In this document: one piece after another, positions 10,167-25,664 of the stretch
Layout of the letters: each line of letters opens with the position of its first letter
Numbering within the stretch: position 1 is the first letter of the stretch
Origin: Prorocentrum cordatum
Lineage: Eukaryota
Assembly: GCA_963575745.1 (NCBI GenBank)
Contig: CAUYUJ010000037.1
Coordinates: 186,001 to 250,000 of the forward strand
Reading direction: 5' to 3'
Length of the DNA: 64,000 bases
Notes under the pieces: model-generated
Database searches by the model: none
What the model was told of the DNA's origin: nothing
The model's input: only the letters and a program-made list of their open reading frames with translations
Program-made: the position numbers and the translations under genes

Positions 10167-10583
10167 TTAGCGCGGGGCACCAGGTGGAGCGCCGCGGAAC
10201 GATGACAACATAGCTTGGATGTTGAGTGACGGCACGGCACCATCGGGCGAGGCCGTGAGTAGCTCGGCAAAGGCTCGCCCAGCACTGTGGAGGCGCTGGA
10301 GTAGAGGGCCTTGACGAGCTTGGGCGGCGGCGAGGTCCGCGGCGAGAGCTAAGCACCTCTGCTGGAGGGCAGCCATAGCCTGTGACAGCTCGGTTTCGCG
10401 GTCGGTGAGGGGTGGCTGCTCTGTGCCAGCAGCCGAGGGCCTCGAGACAGAGGCGAGGTCCTCGGTGCGCCTGTCCAAATGGTGGACTAGCGTAGTGCGG
10501 GACCCAGTACGCTGGCGTCCGTCACCCTTGAAATGTGATTGGAGGGGCCGACGCGACCCCAGGGCTGGAGCCGCTAGGGCCAC
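10167..10583 (-). CDS. Small helical/coiled-coil ORF near the element's 3' end (possibly a frameshifted ORF2 tail)
   Basis: ETELSQAMAALQQRCLALAADLAAAQARQ looks like an amphipathic helix and is on the element's strand. Confidence 0.35.
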   Translation of the reverse strand: MALAAPALGSRRPLQSHFKGDGRQRTGSRTTLVHHLDRRTEDLASVSRPSAAGTEQPPLTDRETELSQAMAALQQRCLALAADLAAAQARQGPLLQRLHSAGRAFAELLTASPDGAVPSLNIQAMLSSFRGAPPGAPR

Positions 10584-10643
10584 GCCCCGAGAGGTCGGGA
10601 GAGCCGCTTCCTCTCGCTTAGCAACGATGGAAGCGTGGATGGG

Positions 10644-11624
10644 TCACGAGGGCCTGTCTGGTTTAGTACCCTGCGGGGGGGCTGAAGCCGCCCCCGCTGG
10701 CTGCCGGCGGTGGGGGGGCGGAGTGGTTTGCGCGGTGGGACCAGTCATGATGCCGTGCAAGGGCTCTGAGGTCGGTCGCGTAGAAGGTTGGCGTCTCGGT
10801 AGGGCGGCATGGTCGGCAGCGTGTGGTATCGGCGGTGCGTCCTCCATGCCACTCGGTCCTCGGGGGTCACCCAGGTCATGGTCGGCGTCCTGGCGGTGGC
10901 CGATATCATCGTAAGTGGGCGATATCGCTCTCGGGGACGGAGTCGCAGTAGGGGTCGAGAGGTTTCCCGACGGGGCGGGGTTTTCGCTGGCTGGTCCGTC
11001 GTCCAAAGCGTCCGATCCCCCACCGAAGCTGAACAGGTCATCCTCCTGTTCGTCAGCGTCTTGAAAATGAGCGGCGTTGTCATGTGGGTGCGCTGCCGCT
11101 CTCAATGGCGGAGTCGGGGGCGCCGTGCGGGCACCCGACGGGGCAGGGTTGGCGCTGGCTGGCCCGTCGCCCAGGAAGTCCAGGCCTCCACCAAAGCCGA
11201 ACGGGTCGTCCTCCTGTTCGTCGAATAACACCCGTTTGGCCTCGGCCCAGAGCTCGTCGGGGTCTTGTGGGATGTCTGGTCCAGCCGCGGGTGGTGCCTG
11301 GTCAGACAGCAGGGGATTTGGTTCCATTTTGTTTAGTTCCGCAGCTGTGAAACCAGCCCTGCGGTGTGGGAGGGGGAGTGTACGGTGTCTACGCTCGTAG
11401 ATGGCGACAGCAACTCCATGAAGCACGGTCGCTTGGCGATGTCGTGATTTGGCAGCTTCGACAATGTCGTCTGGAAGGTTATGAGTACGTGCCGCCGTTG
11501 TGGCGAGGGCGTCAGCCTGATGATTGAACTCCTCCGCGATGGGCCCGATGAGCCCGAGGTCGATGCCCATGTCGCCCTGGTGGCTGGCGACTTTCTCGAC
11601 GCGGAACATGTTGGGCTTGGCCAT
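10644..11624 (-). pseudogene. RNase H C-terminal part plus acidic/Pro-rich tail of ORF2
   Basis: KVASHQG...NHQADALA completes RNase H after a frameshift at ~11630. The tail has a duplicated DEQEDDxFxFGGGxDxLxDGPASxNPAPSG. Confidence 0.8.
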
Positions 11625-22888: not shown

Positions 22889-23093
22889 GCATCCTTAGAT
22901 ACCCTTGCATGCTCATGTACATTGCAACAAACACACCCACAGCAAGATGACAGGTGTCCCTACACCAGAAAGCTTGCTCGTGCTGCTGCCAAAACTGACA
23001 TGATATAACAAGAAGGAGATATGACGCGAAGTGAGAAGAGATGCCTCTGAAGGCGCTTCCTCGGAGGGCTGAGGCAGGCTCTCTGAGGCACCT

Positions 23094-25664
23094 TCAATAG
23101 GGTTCCTGAGTGGCCCGACCCTTGTCTTTGCCTTTGTCAGCCCCTGGGGGCCCCGTCCCTGGGGTGACCTGGCCTGGCTGGTCAATCCACCCGCAGACAG
23201 CCACGGGATCGGCAACTGATGCAGCTTCCTCCTTTTTGGTTTCGAGGGTGGCCACCTGTGGCAGGTGGATGGTGCCCCCCGTGAGGTGCCCGAGGAGGGC
23301 CTGGATGTCGCCACGCAGTGCAGCAGCTTCGGTAGTTGCCGTCTGTTGCTGAGTGACGACGGTGGCAAGCCCTCGTTCCAAACCTGAAACGTGCTCCGTG
23401 AGTGTGGCCTGGGATGAGAGAACGCCCGCAAGCTGGACCTGCATGTTATCCACCGTGTTGGCAAGCAGCTCGTGCTGTTGTTCCATGTGTTGGATGCGGG
23501 TCGTGGCGGCCTCTGACAGTTTAGGGGCCGTAGCGAAGCGTTCACCGAGGGTGTTCAGTTCGCGAGATGCCACGCTGAATTCGTCCCCTGATGAGAGGAT
23601 CTCAACGTCGTCATTGTCGCCTGGTGCCTCGGCGGCTGTGGCAACGTCCCCTTCCGTGTGGCCCCCGCCTTCAGCCGCCACCGTGCCTAGTTGCGGGTCA
23701 TGCCCACCTGGTCCTTGGACGGCCGTCTGCTCGGCAGCTCCATCCGTGCCGTGCGGGGGTGCAGAGGAGCTGCGGCCTGGGGCGCCGTGTGATCTTGCGT
23801 GCGGCGTGGCGTCGCGTTTCCCGCTGGAGGATCGGTGGCGCTTGGCTAGAGGCTCCTCCTTGGGGATCGGGAGCGGTGCGACGCCCTTGCCTTTGGGCGT
23901 GGCAGTCATGAGGTCGTGGAGGTAAGGGCTCTGGGCCGCTTTGGTTAGGAGTGTGCCCGTGGCGGGGCTGAAGCCGCCACCACGGGCTGGCGGCGTCACA
24001 GGCTCTGTGATAGTGGTAGGGGTGACAATGGTAACGTTGTCCCTCTTCGGCACCACCTCAGCCAACGGGGCCTCGGTGATGCTCCACGGGATGGGGCGCC
24101 CTGCGACCTGTACCGTATATGTGGGTGGGGGACGATGGGCGCGCACTAAGGCAAACTGGGCCGAAGTGGCTGGGTCCCAGGCGGTGTGGTAGACCTCACA
24201 GTCCCATTTGACGGACGGGCCCGTGAGAGTCTTAGCAAGCTGGGTCAGCGTGGCGTGGCGTGCCGCAATGCCAGTAATGCGGTATCGCGTCTTGGCGAGG
24301 GTGGCTTCACAGCCACGGATGCTGACGGCAGCAGCCTTGGCGGCGTCTGACCCTCGTGCAACACGGATCCCCAATAAGCCTGACTTGCCGTGCCTGACGA
24401 CTCCTAGGGCCTTGAAGTCCACCGACTTCTGGAACGCATCTGCCATCGTGATGGGCTGGTCCTCAGGGAACCACACGGTCTGGTACTTGTCTGCAGTGGG
24501 CTCGTCTGCACCTACGTTGCTGAGGTCGTAGGTGGCGCCGAGTTGCCCTGAACCCGCCAAGACCTTGTCAACCGCTTGAAGACTGACGCCGAAGGTGGCA
24601 GCCAGGGACCTCTTTCCGACGCCTGATCCGTACCTGCCTAGGCTTTTGCAGGGTTCGAGGATGGTGACGGCTTTAAAGTTGCCGTGGAAGAGGGCCTTGA
24701 AGGTGTCCTGGAGCTGACTATCGAGCTCCTGGCGGCGAGCGTCTTTCTTGGACTCCCTGTGCTTTTGGTTTTGGCGCGCCTTGTCCTGTGGAGCGGTGTC
24801 CCTTCGGAAAGGACCCTTGGCGCGTGGACCACCGTTCACGGGGGCACCTCCCGAGAACTGATCCTCGAAGGCCTGATGCATGGAGGGGACTGCGGCGATG
24901 GCTTCGGTTTCATGTATGGTCACCCGAATCCAGCATACGTGGTCGGCAGGATCGATGGTGGCGACGGCAACTTTTTCCGTGCAGGCGACTTCCTTGGTGC
25001 CCAGCTGGTACACGGTCACGGGGACGTGCGTGTGGACCACTTTGGGCGCCTTGGGGTGGCGCTTCAGCACGGGGACGGCGAGCTCGGTACCGACGTAGTT
25101 ATCGTTTTTTGGGCCCATGACAGCAATCGCAAGCTGACCCGTGGTACGCTTACCCTGCTCGAGATGGTGCTGCAGCAGCCGTTCACCGCTCTCGTAGTCG
25201 TGGAGGCTGATGCTGGGCTTGTACGTCTTGCCGTCATCGAGTGATGTGGGTTCGGCCAGGACTGGGACCTTCCAGAAGGCCGGGTCCAAGGCAATGAATT
25301 GGGCGTCCGCAGCCTGAAGACGTGCGGACGCAGCTGGTGGGTAGGGTGTGTCACCACCACTGCGCTTAGGCTTGCTGCGCTGGTGGTGATCCAGCGTGTA
25401 GCTGATCTGGTTGGCGGCACACATGCGGATCAAGGCGCTGCCTAGCTTCTTTGTGTTGGTCTTGTGCATGTCGTACGTGGCCTGCAGCTCGTCCGCGTTC
25501 AGCTCGGCGAGCCCGTTGTATGCGGCCGTGGGGCGGTCAGACCCCGCTTGCTTGAAAGCTGCAATGCAGTCCTGTTTGCGTTGGAGGAGAGACCCTTCAG
25601 CTGCAGGACGTGAGCTCGGCGGCTGCTTGGAAGAGCGACGGCGCTCCGGCTTGGCGGGGGCCAT
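23094..25664 (-). CDS. LINE ORF1 protein (856 aa from ATG at 25664), putative RNA-binding protein with C-terminal coiled coil
   Basis: Long intact ORF ~160 nt from the 5' end of the element. It has a globular middle part, a low-complexity linker and a heptad-like segment RIQHMEQQHELLANTVDNMQVQLAGVLSSQATLTEHVSGLERGL. The function is inferred from position. Confidence 0.75.
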   Translation of the reverse strand: MAPAKPERRRSSKQPPSSRPAAEGSLLQRKQDCIAAFKQAGSDRPTAAYNGLAELNADELQATYDMHKTNTKKLGSALIRMCAANQISYTLDHHQRSKPKRSGGDTPYPPAASARLQAADAQFIALDPAFWKVPVLAEPTSLDDGKTYKPSISLHDYESGERLLQHHLEQGKRTTGQLAIAVMGPKNDNYVGTELAVPVLKRHPKAPKVVHTHVPVTVYQLGTKEVACTEKVAVATIDPADHVCWIRVTIHETEAIAAVPSMHQAFEDQFSGGAPVNGGPRAKGPFRRDTAPQDKARQNQKHRESKKDARRQELDSQLQDTFKALFHGNFKAVTILEPCKSLGRYGSGVGKRSLAATFGVSLQAVDKVLAGSGQLGATYDLSNVGADEPTADKYQTVWFPEDQPITMADAFQKSVDFKALGVVRHGKSGLLGIRVARGSDAAKAAAVSIRGCEATLAKTRYRITGIAARHATLTQLAKTLTGPSVKWDCEVYHTAWDPATSAQFALVRAHRPPPTYTVQVAGRPIPWSITEAPLAEVVPKRDNVTIVTPTTITEPVTPPARGGGFSPATGTLLTKAAQSPYLHDLMTATPKGKGVAPLPIPKEEPLAKRHRSSSGKRDATPHARSHGAPGRSSSAPPHGTDGAAEQTAVQGPGGHDPQLGTVAAEGGGHTEGDVATAAEAPGDNDDVEILSSGDEFSVASRELNTLGERFATAPKLSEAATTRIQHMEQQHELLANTVDNMQVQLAGVLSSQATLTEHVSGLERGLATVVTQQQTATTEAAALRGDIQALLGHLTGGTIHLPQVATLETKKEEAASVADPVAVCGWIDQPGQVTPGTGPPGADKGKDKGRATQEPY

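What the first reader, a model, noticed from the sequence alone, without database searches (positions are those of the whole stretch)
10557..25331. Periodic (~1.1 kb) covarying bulged-C/UYCA hairpins hidden in the coding sequence along the whole retrotransposon
Seen: 15 stem-loops with the element-sense consensus 5'-[5-13 bp variable stem]-bulged C-G(G/C/U)C-U(U/C)CA-G(C/G)C-[stem']-3'. Plus-strand coordinates: 10557-10579, 10673-10697, 11973-11995, 13004-13024, 13854-13874, 15997-16020, 17213-17235, 18286-18316, 19356-19380, 20472-20492, 21615-21639, 22581-22605, 22757-22793, 23955-23987, 25303-25331. Outer stems differ in sequence yet stay complementary (ATCCTG/CAGGAT, AGCGC/GCGCT, CCAGG/CCTGG, GCGTCCGCA/TGCGGACGC). 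The inner stem swaps compensatorily (GGC/GCC to GCC/GGC). Six copies have a mismatch that is G-U on the element's sense strand; a few mismatches favour the other strand. The motif is read in all three frames (GGFSP, AASA/APSG, RLQA), so the constraint is not on protein. Successive spacings from 16.0 to 22.6 kb are ~1216, 1073, 1070, 1116, 1143 and 966 nt. The one long gap (13.9-16.0 kb) overlaps the rearranged EN region. Established: bulge-plus-tetraloop hairpins serve as protein-binding or packaging signals (MS2 coat operator, dispersed ssRNA-phage packaging signals). Inference: a regularly spaced cis-acting RNA code for RNP assembly, cis-preference or RT processivity on a 16-kb LINE transcript. 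I do not know of this being described.
Basis: partly seen in the sequence, partly recalled or inferred. Interest (0 to 1): 0.95.

Follow-up and report, generated by a model that had tools for sequence, protein, structure and literature searches.

The report
Evenly spaced conserved hairpins inside a giant LINE
A 16-kb retrotransposon-like element carries fifteen near-identical small hairpins written through its protein-coding sequence about every 1.1 kb, a pattern far beyond chance that looks like a set of protein-binding sites on its RNA and has no described counterpart in such elements.

Summary
All 15 hairpins sit at the stated coordinates on the minus (element-sense) strand: 5-13 bp variable stem, bulged C, G-N-C / UYCA / G-N'-C. 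A strict descriptor finds 13 on the sense strand and 0 on the antisense strand. Dinucleotide shuffles give a mean of 0.028 and synonymous-codon shuffles 0.148. A covariance model built from 8 hairpins ranks the 7 held-out ones above every other site in the 64 kb window. Ten of 14 gaps are 950-1350 nt, against 1.85 expected. The motif is read in all three frames. Peptides encoded by hairpins 1, 3, 4, 6 and 8 persist in relatives of 52-92% identity, inside otherwise diverging linkers. More distant relatives (10.2 kb of DNA) have none. No Rfam family matches and five literature searches found nothing. Folding energy does not say which strand is used, and no binding or expression data exist. Best reading (about 0.4): operator-like protein-binding sites on the element's RNA that nucleate RNP assembly. 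Function is inferred, not shown.

The parts
9770..25822 (-). LINE-like element of about 16.05 kb, sense on the minus strand, flanked on both sides by (GA/TC)n arrays (9564-9764 and 25824-26170)
   Evidence: flanks. (domain order EEP, weak RVT_1, RNase H). (many diverged contig pieces in 4 of 4 runs).
23094..25664 (-). ORF1 (856 aa from the ATG at 25664), no recognised domain; holds hp1 and hp2
15743..22916 (-). N-terminal orphan part of ORF2; holds hp3-hp10. In sister copy P0005 the ORF starts at MSIQG (about 22916); this copy is shifted by one base near 22741
   Evidence: table 4 (22741, one base left out in other copies).
13736..15580 (-). Apurinic-type endonuclease region (PF03372, 27.6 bits, cut-off 24.5), with a tandem duplication 14971-15403 / 15416-15838
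12421..13752 (-). Divergent RT-like region (FVDD motif; RVT_1 12.1 bits, below the cut-off)
11631..12506 (-). RNase H region (PF00075: 22.1 bits here, 41 bits in relative L001)
25303..25331 (-). hp1: GCGTCCGCA-C-GTC-TTCA-GGC-TGCGGACGC, read ASARLQAADA
   Evidence: The peptide is kept as (A/G)SARLQ(A/T)AD in P0044-P0047 (4 of the 8 relatives that cover the site) and is cut after GSARL at the end of P0049.
23955..23987 (-). hp2: 11-bp outer stem, core C-GGC-TTCA-GCC, read ARGGGFSPATG
   Evidence: held out, 35.0 bits.
22757..22793 (-). hp3: 13-bp outer stem with two A-C mismatches, core C-GTC-TTCA-GGC
   Evidence: The same DNA reading frame gives a peptide identical to that of sister copy P0005.
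22581..22605 (-). hp4: ACAGTGG-C-GGC-TTCA-GCC-CCGCTGT, read HSGGFSPAV
   Evidence: held out, 29.5 bits. GGFSP is kept in P0005 and in P0006 (52% identity).
21615..21639 (-). hp5: GCAGTGG-C-GGC-TTCA-GCC-CCGCTGC, read GSGGFSPAA
   Evidence: Kept in P0005; a 5-aa gap in P0006 near that contig's end.
20472..20492 (-). hp6: CCAGG-C-GCC-TTCA-GGC-CCTGG, read PQAPSGPG
   Evidence: held out, 20.6 bits. P0008 (62%) has PQEPSGPG.
19356..19380 (-). hp7: GCCCCAG-C-GGC-TCCA-GCC-CTGGGGC; shares 36 of 40 nt with hp15 and its flanks
18286..18316 (-). hp8: CCCCCCCGAG-C-GCC-TTCA-GGC-CCCGGGGGGG (one A-C mismatch), read PPRAPSGPGGE
   Evidence: held out, 27.5 bits. P0007 (61%) has PQEPSGPG; P0021 (93%) is identical.
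17213..17235 (-). hp9: CCCCTG-C-GGC-TTCA-GCC-CAGGGG, read TPAASAQG
15997..16020 (-). hp10: TGACGG-C-GGC-TTCA-GCC-CCGGTCA (extra 3' G), read LTAASAPVK
   Evidence: held out, 19.5 bits.
13854..13874 (-). hp11: GCTGG-C-GGC-TTCA-GCC-CCAGC, in the EN-RT linker
   Evidence: Absent from relatives L001 and L003.
13004..13024 (-). hp12: AGCGC-C-GGC-TCCA-GCC-GCGCT, read AAPAPAAL in a variable RT linker
   Evidence: held out, 17.9 bits.
11973..11995 (-). hp13: ATCCTG-C-GGC-TTCA-GCC-CAGGAT, in the linker before RNase H
10673..10697 (-). hp14: GCGGGGG-C-GGC-TTCA-GCC-CCCCCGC, just before the stop at 10644
   Evidence: held out, 32.7 bits.
10557..10579 (-). hp15: CCCTAG-C-GGC-TCCA-GCC-CTGGGG (extends to 13 pairs over 10550-10586), inside a 158-aa downstream ORF, about 800 nt from the element's 3' end

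Best explanation
The 15 hairpins are selected cis-acting structural signals of the element. They work as operator-like binding sites on a single-stranded form of it, most likely the sense RNA.

A protein would read the C(UYCA)G tetraloop, the 3-bp upper helix and the 5' bulged base. That protein is probably one of the element's own orphan proteins (ORF1 or the N-terminal 2,400 aa of ORF2), or else a host factor. The lower stem only has to pair.

One site about every 1.1 kb, starting roughly half a period (506 nt) from the 5' end, spreads nucleation points along the 16-kb transcript. From these points the RNA would be coated or condensed into the retrotransposition RNP.

Shown: the hairpins exist, are non-random, are constrained at the nucleic-acid level, are evenly spaced, and several persist in sister families.

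Inferred: that RNA is the acting molecule, that a protein binds, and that the purpose is RNP assembly.
For: - Non-random and strand-oriented: 13 sense against 0 antisense, with 0.028 (dinucleotide) and 0.148 (codon-preserving) expected.
- A discrete class: the 15 score 27.9-37.5 bits and the next site 15.4. All 7 held-out hairpins outrank the rest of the window.
- A conservation pattern typical of a protein-recognised hairpin. The bulge, the two flanking pairs and the loop are invariant or near-invariant, the middle pair covaries (GC 11, CG 2, UG 2), and the lower stem is free in sequence but paired. Overall 87% of cells are paired against 59% when shuffled, with 40 double-change cells against 12.6.
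- No conserved sequence outside positions -5 to +7.
- The same nucleotides are read in three frames.
- Regular spacing: 10 of 14 gaps fall in 950-1350 nt, P<1e-5. There are 33 PGSA-rich linker segments, so the spacing is not simply 'one hairpin per linker'.
- Islands of conservation in diverging linkers. GGFSP is kept in P0006 at 52% identity. PQAPSGPG and PRAPSGPG both read PQEPSGPG in P0008 and P0007 at about 61%, which implies the same bulge change C to A at two sites. ASARLQAAD reads GSARLQTAD at 68-76% identity; the Ala-to-Thr change would turn the inner U-G pair into U-A. Hp3 is kept although it is read in another frame.
- The last hairpin lies about 800 nt from the 3' end, so this is not a terminal RT-recognition signal.
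Against: - There is no direct evidence of RNA structure, of protein binding or of expression.
- Folding energies do not favour the sense strand: sums are -322.9 and -309.1 kcal/mol, with sense better in 7 hairpins and antisense in 8. Three A-C mismatches favour the other strand. A single-stranded DNA role therefore stays open.
- No RNA-binding domain was found in any ORF.
- Relatives with 62-83% RT identity (L001-L005, 10,245 nt) have no such hairpin and no other recurring hairpin, including at the positions of hp11-13. The system is therefore confined to a narrow clade.
- Hp7 is not kept in relatives of 31-41% identity, and hp5 may be missing in P0006.
- Conservation in sister families was read from proteins only. 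Their DNA could not be fetched.
- The hairpins fall into look-alike subgroups (hp4/5, hp7/15, hp9/13, hp6/8). This could equally reflect copying of cassettes.
Confidence: 0.4

Rival explanations
1. The hairpins act on single-stranded DNA. They fold in the first-strand cDNA, or in displaced sense DNA, after the element's RNase H has removed the RNA. There they serve as evenly spaced pause, priming or template-switch points during synthesis of a 16-kb copy.
For: The antisense strand folds as well as the sense strand, and three A-C mismatches would be G-T on the antisense strand. The element carries an RNase H domain. Even spacing suits a processive synthesis step. Five of the 9 listed contig joints end within 7 nt of a hairpin edge (table 5). 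This is weak evidence, because the short sides are 21-35 nt and similar hairpins can cross-match.
Against: About ten G-U pairs would be C-A mismatches in the cDNA, and hp15 drops from -27.7 to -13.7 kcal/mol. No such mechanism is known for LINEs (recalled). Nothing here addresses DNA synthesis.
Confidence: 0.15
2. The hairpins bind a host factor rather than an element protein, for example for nuclear export, stability or escape from silencing of a long intronless GC-rich transcript. Many evenly spread copies would raise the effect.
For: The structural evidence is the same as for the best explanation. No RNA-binding domain is recognisable in the element's ORFs.
Against: The motif is absent from the other 48 kb of the window on both strands. 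The implied concerted change of the bulge at two sites in a sister family fits co-evolution with an element-encoded partner better than with a conserved host factor.
Confidence: 0.15
3. The hairpins are a by-product without function. Short palindromic cassettes were copied from site to site (gene conversion, RT template switching or a tiny palindromic insertion element) and are tolerated in linkers.
For: There are look-alike subgroups: hp4/hp5 share 23 of 25 nt and hp7/hp15 share 36 of 40 nt including flanks. The window has 5 more residues than relatives at hp13 and hp5. Eleven of 15 hairpins lie in PGSA-rich linkers. More distant relatives lack them.
Against: Hp12 shows no real insertion relative to homologues, only a 1-aa difference. 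No conserved flank or target duplication was seen in the anchored alignment (by eye only). Random copying does not give even spacing. It also does not explain why the sites survive as conserved islands while the linkers around them diverge. There are no decayed copies between 15 and 28 bits.
Confidence: 0.1
4. The hairpins act in translation. They are moderate structures placed in inter-domain linkers that slow the ribosome so that each roughly 370-aa unit of a giant polyprotein can fold.
For: All 15 are inside ORFs and 11 of 15 are in linker-like segments. The spacing is about 367 codons.
Against: Pausing needs stability, not an invariant bulged C and an invariant UYCA loop. Stabilities range widely, from -9.7 to -28.8 kcal/mol. 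Hp15 lies beyond the stop codon at 10644.
Confidence: 0.07
5. It is a repeated peptide motif (for example GGFSP) under protein-level selection.
For: GGFSP occurs three times and is kept in P0006.
Against: The same nucleotide core is read as GGFSP, AASA/APSG/APA and RLQA in three frames. Codon-preserving shuffles give 0.148 hairpins against 13 observed. Hp3 is conserved across a frame change.
Confidence: 0.02

Closest known systems
Coat-protein operator hairpins and dispersed packaging signals of ssRNA phages and viruses (MS2, PP7; packaging-signal-mediated assembly). PMC4751978 was seen only as a title and abstract start in a search listing; the operator details are recalled.
   Same: A short hairpin with a single 5' bulged base, a 2-4 bp upper helix and a small loop of fixed sequence. 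Many copies lie across the genome, including inside coding sequence. The lower stems are free in sequence.
   Different: The bulge is C rather than A, the upper helix is 3 bp, and the loop is UYCA. The host is a eukaryotic LINE-like element with no recognisable capsid or coat gene. The cores are nearly identical rather than degenerate. The spacing is wide and even, at about 1.1 kb.
3'-terminal stem-loops recognised by the RT of 'stringent' LINEs and by R2 protein (PMC5135761 and PMC11194090, seen only in search listings).
   Same: A cis-acting hairpin of a non-LTR element read by its own protein.
   Different: Those signals sit at the 3' end, in single or few copies, in the UTR. Here there are 15 copies spread through the ORFs, and the last is about 800 nt from the 3' end.
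Iron-responsive element (recalled).
   Same: A bulged C on the 5' strand below a short upper helix. IREs can occur in several copies in one mRNA.
   Different: The IRE has a 5-bp upper helix and a CAGUGN hexaloop and lies in UTRs. No Rfam IRE match was found.
Small palindromic repeats that sit in genes or between them (bacterial REP/BIME, Rickettsia palindromic elements; PMC3733652 seen in a listing only, otherwise recalled).
   Same: Hairpins of 20-40 nt with a conserved tag and compensatory stem variation. RPEs can lie in frame in coding sequence.
   Different: Those are bacterial, genome-wide and irregularly placed. The hairpins here are confined to one eukaryotic element, have one orientation and are evenly spaced.

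Membership tests
Any curated Rfam family | Match at or near the family's gathering score | tested here: not met
   over 9500-26300 on both strands at E<=1 there was only a sub-threshold mir-598 hit on the other strand (29.3 bits against 69).
MS2/PP7-type coat operator | Bulged A, 2-bp (MS2) or 4-bp (PP7) upper helix, and an AUUA or hexaloop sequence (recalled) | tested here: not met
   bulged C in 15 of 15, a 3-bp upper helix, and a UUCA (12) or UCCA (3) loop.
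MS2/PP7-type coat operator | A cognate coat protein gene in the same genome | tested here: inconclusive
   the ORFs that could supply a binder have no recognisable family. This neither shows nor excludes one.
Dispersed packaging signals (functional class) | Multiple stem-loops sharing a loop motif along the whole genomic RNA, including coding regions | tested here: met
   15 sites from nt 506 to nt 15255 of about 16053, all in ORFs.
Dispersed packaging signals (functional class) | Specific binding by the assembling protein | not testable with these tools
   Needs EMSA or CLIP.
Iron-responsive element | Bulged C, 5-bp upper helix, CAGUGN loop (recalled) | tested here: not met
   the bulged C is present, but the upper helix is 3 bp and the loop is UYCA; no Rfam hit.
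Stringent-LINE 3' recognition stem-loop | Located at the 3' end of the element, next to the tail | tested here: not met
   the last hairpin is at 10557-10579 and the element ends near 9770. The 3' 800 nt have none.
Non-LTR (LINE) retrotransposon | Apurinic-type endonuclease domain | tested here: met
   PF03372 at 27.6 bits, cut-off 24.5.
Non-LTR (LINE) retrotransposon | Reverse transcriptase domain | tested here: inconclusive
   RVT_1 at 12.1 bits (cut-off 29.6) over an FVDD-bearing region; relative L001 gives RVT_1 at 11.5 bits and zf-RVT at 16 bits; no PDB sequence match.
Non-LTR (LINE) retrotransposon | No long terminal repeats; many dispersed, partly truncated copies | tested here: met
   the only end-to-end similarity is the (GA)n flanks; 85,715 contig pieces were laid in X1 across all identity bands, and pieces were laid in 4 of 4 runs.
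Small palindromic insertion element (REP/RPE/MITE-like) | Present as an insertion relative to homologues, with a target duplication | tested here: inconclusive
   Hp12 shows a 1-aa difference only. Hp13 and hp5 are +5 aa. No shared flank or direct repeat was seen in the anchored alignment (by eye).

The most novel reading that the evidence does not exclude
A non-LTR retrotransposon uses virus-like, packaging-signal-mediated assembly. A lattice of operator hairpins with a 1.1-kb period is written through its ORFs and co-evolves with an element-encoded RNA-binding protein. The co-evolution is suggested by the bulge changing from C to A in concert at two sites in a sister family. This 'RNA ruler' would organise a 16-kb RNP and would be a physical basis for cis-preference.
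Probability: 0.3. Interest if true: 0.9.

Novelty: new variant of a known kind. Interest (0 to 1): 0.8.

Why it matters
How LINE proteins pick and organise their own RNA (cis-preference) is an old open question. The known cis signals are single 3'-end structures. A giant element with 15 evenly spaced, conserved, operator-like hairpins inside its coding sequence would make the question directly testable. The sites are discrete, short and mutable by synonymous changes, and a binding partner can be fished with a 27-nt RNA. The case also shows that strong RNA or DNA structural codes can overlap coding sequence in all three frames in a eukaryotic mobile element. Finally, it offers a compact, possibly orthogonal hairpin and binder pair if a binder exists.

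Tried and rejected
- Whole genome: none is held for this window, so there is no genome-wide count.
- Earlier scan notes: nothing was returned.
- Sequencing runs: no RNA holder is listed, so there is no expression evidence either way.
- Read laying: only 40 of about 1,800 variable places are listed, and none lies in a hairpin (about 1 would be expected). This gives no information on variation within hairpins.
- First metagenome scan with the 2,383-aa ORF: no relative found.
- Viral-contig scan: no relative found.
- Internal 1.1-kb repeat units as the source of the periodicity: rejected. A self-BLAST finds only the 430-bp EN duplication, an 89-nt pair (10966-11054 / 11134-11222) and the 40-nt hp7/hp15 match.
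- Other recurring hairpin cores in the window belong to a 152-bp satellite and to dispersed palindromes, not to this class.
- A different recurring hairpin in relatives L001-L005: none seen.
- G-U counts and folding energies as a strand test: inconclusive.
- Domain searches for an RNA-binding protein in ORF1, ORF2 and the 3' ORF found nothing useful. Pfam at E<=5 gave only chance-level COG6_N and ATG16 hits, and the Atlas best score was 0.76.
- PDB sequence search with the RT alignment: 0 hits.
- Literature: four keyword searches and one search with the motif string found no description. Papers were seen as listings only, and none was read.
- Structure prediction and complex prediction were not used.

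Full report
**The element.** The region lies on the minus strand of a GC-rich (about 63%) stretch. It reads as a series of long ORFs in one direction.
- ORF1 runs from the ATG at 25664 to 23094 (856 aa).
- A 2,383-aa frame covers 22894-15743.
- Then come frames carrying an apurinic-type endonuclease (PF03372, 27.6 bits, above its cut-off), an FVDD-bearing RT-like region and RNase H (22.1 bits here).
- RVT_1 reaches only 12.1 bits, and a profile of the RT region finds no PDB sequence.
- The intact relative L001 gives RNase H at 41 bits, plus weak zf-RVT and RVT_1 in the canonical order.
- The element runs from about 25822 to about 9770 and is flanked on both sides by (GA/TC)n arrays. It has no LTRs.
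- Contigs of four public runs lay on all of it in many diverged pieces: 85,715 pieces in X1, and about 1,800 variable places.

I therefore call it a LINE-like element, with a probable but very divergent RT. This copy is slightly damaged. It has an in-frame stop at 11630/11631, frame changes near 13750, 12500 and 22741, and a 95%-identical tandem duplication, 14971-15403 / 15416-15838.

**The observation.** All 15 coordinate pairs fold as described on the sense strand, at -9.7 to -28.8 kcal/mol. Anchored on the loop, they read as follows:
- a lower stem of 5-13 pairs;
- an invariant bulged C;
- an invariant G-C pair;
- a middle pair of G-C (11), C-G (2) or U-G (2);
- an invariant loop-closing C-G pair;
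- a loop of UUCA (12) or UCCA (3).

Nothing is conserved outside positions -5 to +7.

**Chance.**
- The 10-nt core occurs 16 times in the window, 13 of them on the minus strand inside the element. Shuffles gave a mean of 2.86 and a maximum of 7.
- A strict structural descriptor finds 13 on the sense strand and 0 on the antisense strand. 1000 dinucleotide shuffles gave a mean of 0.028. 500 shuffles of synonymous codons that keep the proteins gave a mean of 0.148 and a maximum of 2.
- Of the 21 hairpins of this architecture with any loop, 12 carry C|UUCA or C|UCCA. Shuffles give 3.8 such hairpins in all.
- A covariance model of the 15 scores them at 27.9-37.5 bits and nothing else in the window or in five related loci above 15.4 bits.
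- Training sequences match by construction, so I rebuilt the model from 8 hairpins. The 7 left out came back at 35.0, 32.7, 29.5, 27.5, 20.6, 19.5 and 17.9 bits, all above the best other site at 16.4.
- Across the 15, 87% of cells pair against 59% when the 3' letters are shuffled. Nine of 11 pairs show changes on both sides. Sliding the partner by one to three columns drops pairing to 35-52%.
- These are paralogous sites in one element, so this shows that pairing is maintained or generated. It does not show descent with compensation.

**Not a protein motif.** The loop's first U falls at codon position 1 in 4 hairpins (GGFSP, GSSP), position 2 in 2 (RLQA) and position 3 in 9 (AASA, APSG, APA). 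In sister copy P0005 the hp3 DNA is read in another frame, yet the peptide in that frame is identical to the window's translation of the same frame. The nucleotides are therefore kept across a frame change. This also matches the one-base difference at 22741 seen in other copies.

**Spacing.** Centre-to-centre gaps are 1346, 1196, 182, 966, 1145, 1114, 1067, 1077, 1216, 2144, 850, 1030, 1299 and 117 nt.
- Ten of 14 lie in 950-1350 nt. Random placement gives a mean of 1.85, and none of 100,000 trials reached 10.
- With the two doublets merged, the coefficient of variation is 0.25 and the best period is about 1100 nt.
- The long gap contains the 445-nt tandem duplication, and the models find no decayed copy there.
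- The first site is 506 nt from the 5' end, about half a period. The last is about 800 nt from the 3' end.
- Eleven of 15 sites lie in PGSA-rich, hydrophobic-poor segments. That test is partly circular because the hairpins encode such residues. There are 33 such segments covering 34% of residues, so permissive linkers alone do not set the lattice.

**Relatives.** The family is rare in protein databases: 4, 2, 37 and 9 hits in the four searches. Where close relatives cover a hairpin, the encoded peptide stands out as a conserved island.
- Hp4: HSGGFSPAV against HGGGFSPTV in P0006 (52% identity), between unalignable flanks. The Ser/Ala to Gly/Thr pair of changes lies on opposite arms and is compatible with kept pairing. 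That compatibility is an inference from codons.
- Hp6: PQAPSGPG against PQEPSGPG in P0008 (62%).
- Hp8: PRAPSGPG against PQEPSGPG in P0007 (61%), and identical in P0021 (93%). Ala (GCG) to Glu (GAG) at both sites would change the bulged C to A in both.
- Hp1: eight of the 9 relatives reach this site. ASARLQAAD reads GSARLQ(A/T)AD in four (P0044-P0047). P0049 is cut after GSARL. P0048 (57%) reads ASLQA. P0050 and P0051 diverge there, possibly through frame shifts. Ala to Thr would turn the inner U-G into U-A.
- P0018 (about 40%) has PGRLQAPG, itself hairpin-compatible, about 10 residues from the hp5 position. This is a lead only.

Against this:
- Hp7 is not recognisable in relatives of 31-41% identity.
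- Hp5 is a 5-aa gap in P0006 near that contig's end.
- Five metagenome loci with 62-83% RT identity (10,245 nt, sense strand known) hold no such hairpin and no other recurring one. L001 and L003 span the hp11-13 positions.
- At hp12 the window differs from homologues by substitutions and one residue, not by an insertion. At hp13 it is 5 residues longer than L001.

The system is therefore conserved within a family-level clade and absent from more distant ones. The DNA of the closer relatives could not be fetched, so the orthologous covariation test remains undone.

**Strand.** All 15 have the same orientation relative to the element. Within the stems I count about ten G-U pairs on the sense strand and three A-C mismatches that would be G-U on the other strand. 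Summed RNA folding energies are -322.9 (sense) and -309.1 kcal/mol (antisense). Sense is more stable in 7 hairpins and antisense in 8. The substitutions inferred in relatives (U-G to U-A at hp1 and hp4) suggest that wobble pairs are tolerated on the sense strand. This is not decisive.

**A weak lead from the laid contigs.** Five of the 9 listed joints end within 7 nt of a hairpin edge (13852, 17207, 22574, 22759, 23961), and the short side (21-35 nt) is the hairpin itself (table 5). This may mean indels beside retained hairpins, hairpins at other positions in variant copies, or cross-matching between similar hairpins. The tool warns that such short sides at 80% likeness are often spurious.

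**What it is not.**
- It matches no Rfam family.
- It is not a remnant of 1.1-kb internal repeats.
- It is not the window's other palindromes or its satellite.
- It is not a terminal RT-recognition hairpin.
- It is not a peptide repeat.

**Mechanism.**
- The pattern is fixed identities at the bulge, the flanking pairs and the loop, a covarying middle pair, and a lower stem constrained only to pair. This is the signature of a hairpin read by a protein.
- The architecture resembles phage coat-protein operators and the IRE. That comparison is recalled, and the defining sequences are not met.
- Even coverage of a 16-kb transcript, starting half a period from the 5' end, fits distributed nucleation of an RNP.
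- I put about 0.85 on 'selected nucleic-acid structural signals of the element'. I put about 0.4 on the specific reading 'sense-RNA binding sites for an element-encoded or recruited protein that nucleate RNP assembly'.
- The rivals are a single-stranded-DNA role in cDNA or second-strand synthesis, a host-factor site, functionless cassette copying, and ribosome pausing. They are set out with their evidence in the fields above.

**Literature.** Four keyword searches and one motif-string search of the held library found no description of periodic hairpins in a retrotransposon. Papers named as comparisons were seen only as titles and abstract starts in the listings. Subscription journals are largely outside the library.

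Noticed in passing
window 9564-9764 and 25824-26170: The element is bracketed on both sides by long imperfect (GA/TC)n arrays that are 80-88% alike. It either inserted into a TC-rich satellite (possible target preference) or carries such a tail.
   Followed up: partly
window 8831-9562: A 152-bp tandem satellite with 4.8 copies at 98% identity, directly beside the (GA)n array. An (AGATA)n array lies at 8521-8778.
   Followed up: partly
window 125-150, 5608-5633, 6629-6664, 7181-7206: A dispersed perfect palindrome, GCGTGCCTGCACGC(G/A)TGCAGGCACGC, recurs four times with similar flanks. It is probably part of another repeat family.
   Followed up: no
window 33699-33718, 33997-34016, 35223-35252, 36316-36333, 41688-41707: A recurrent CG-rich palindrome, CGCGCGCGTCGTCGCGCGCG, occurs at five places in another part of the window.
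   Followed up: no
window 14971-15403 and 15416-15838: A 95%-identical tandem duplication inside the endonuclease region of this copy. It accounts for part of the one long gap between hairpins.
   Followed up: partly
window 10167-10643 (minus strand): A 158-aa open frame follows the stop at 10644 in the same frame. It has a coiled-coil-like stretch, contains hp15, and may be read through or be a separate small ORF.
   Followed up: no
window about 22741 and 22916: Compared with sister copy P0005 and most laid contigs, this copy has one extra base near 22741. In the sister frame, ORF2 starts at MSIQG (about 22916) and hp3 is read as PSSGG.
   Followed up: yes
window 12421-13752; L001: The RT of this clade is so divergent that Pfam RVT_1 gives only 11-12 bits and a family profile finds no PDB sequence. 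YxDD is replaced by FVDD.
   Followed up: partly
window 26500-64000 and 1-9400: Thirty-three other long open frames gave no Pfam family at E<=0.001. The rest of the window looks like repeats or non-coding DNA.
   Followed up: partly
table 5 (13852, 17207, 22574, 22759, 23961): Five of 9 listed contig joints end at a hairpin edge. This may reflect indels beside hairpins, hairpins at other positions in variant copies, or cross-matching of similar hairpins.
   Followed up: no
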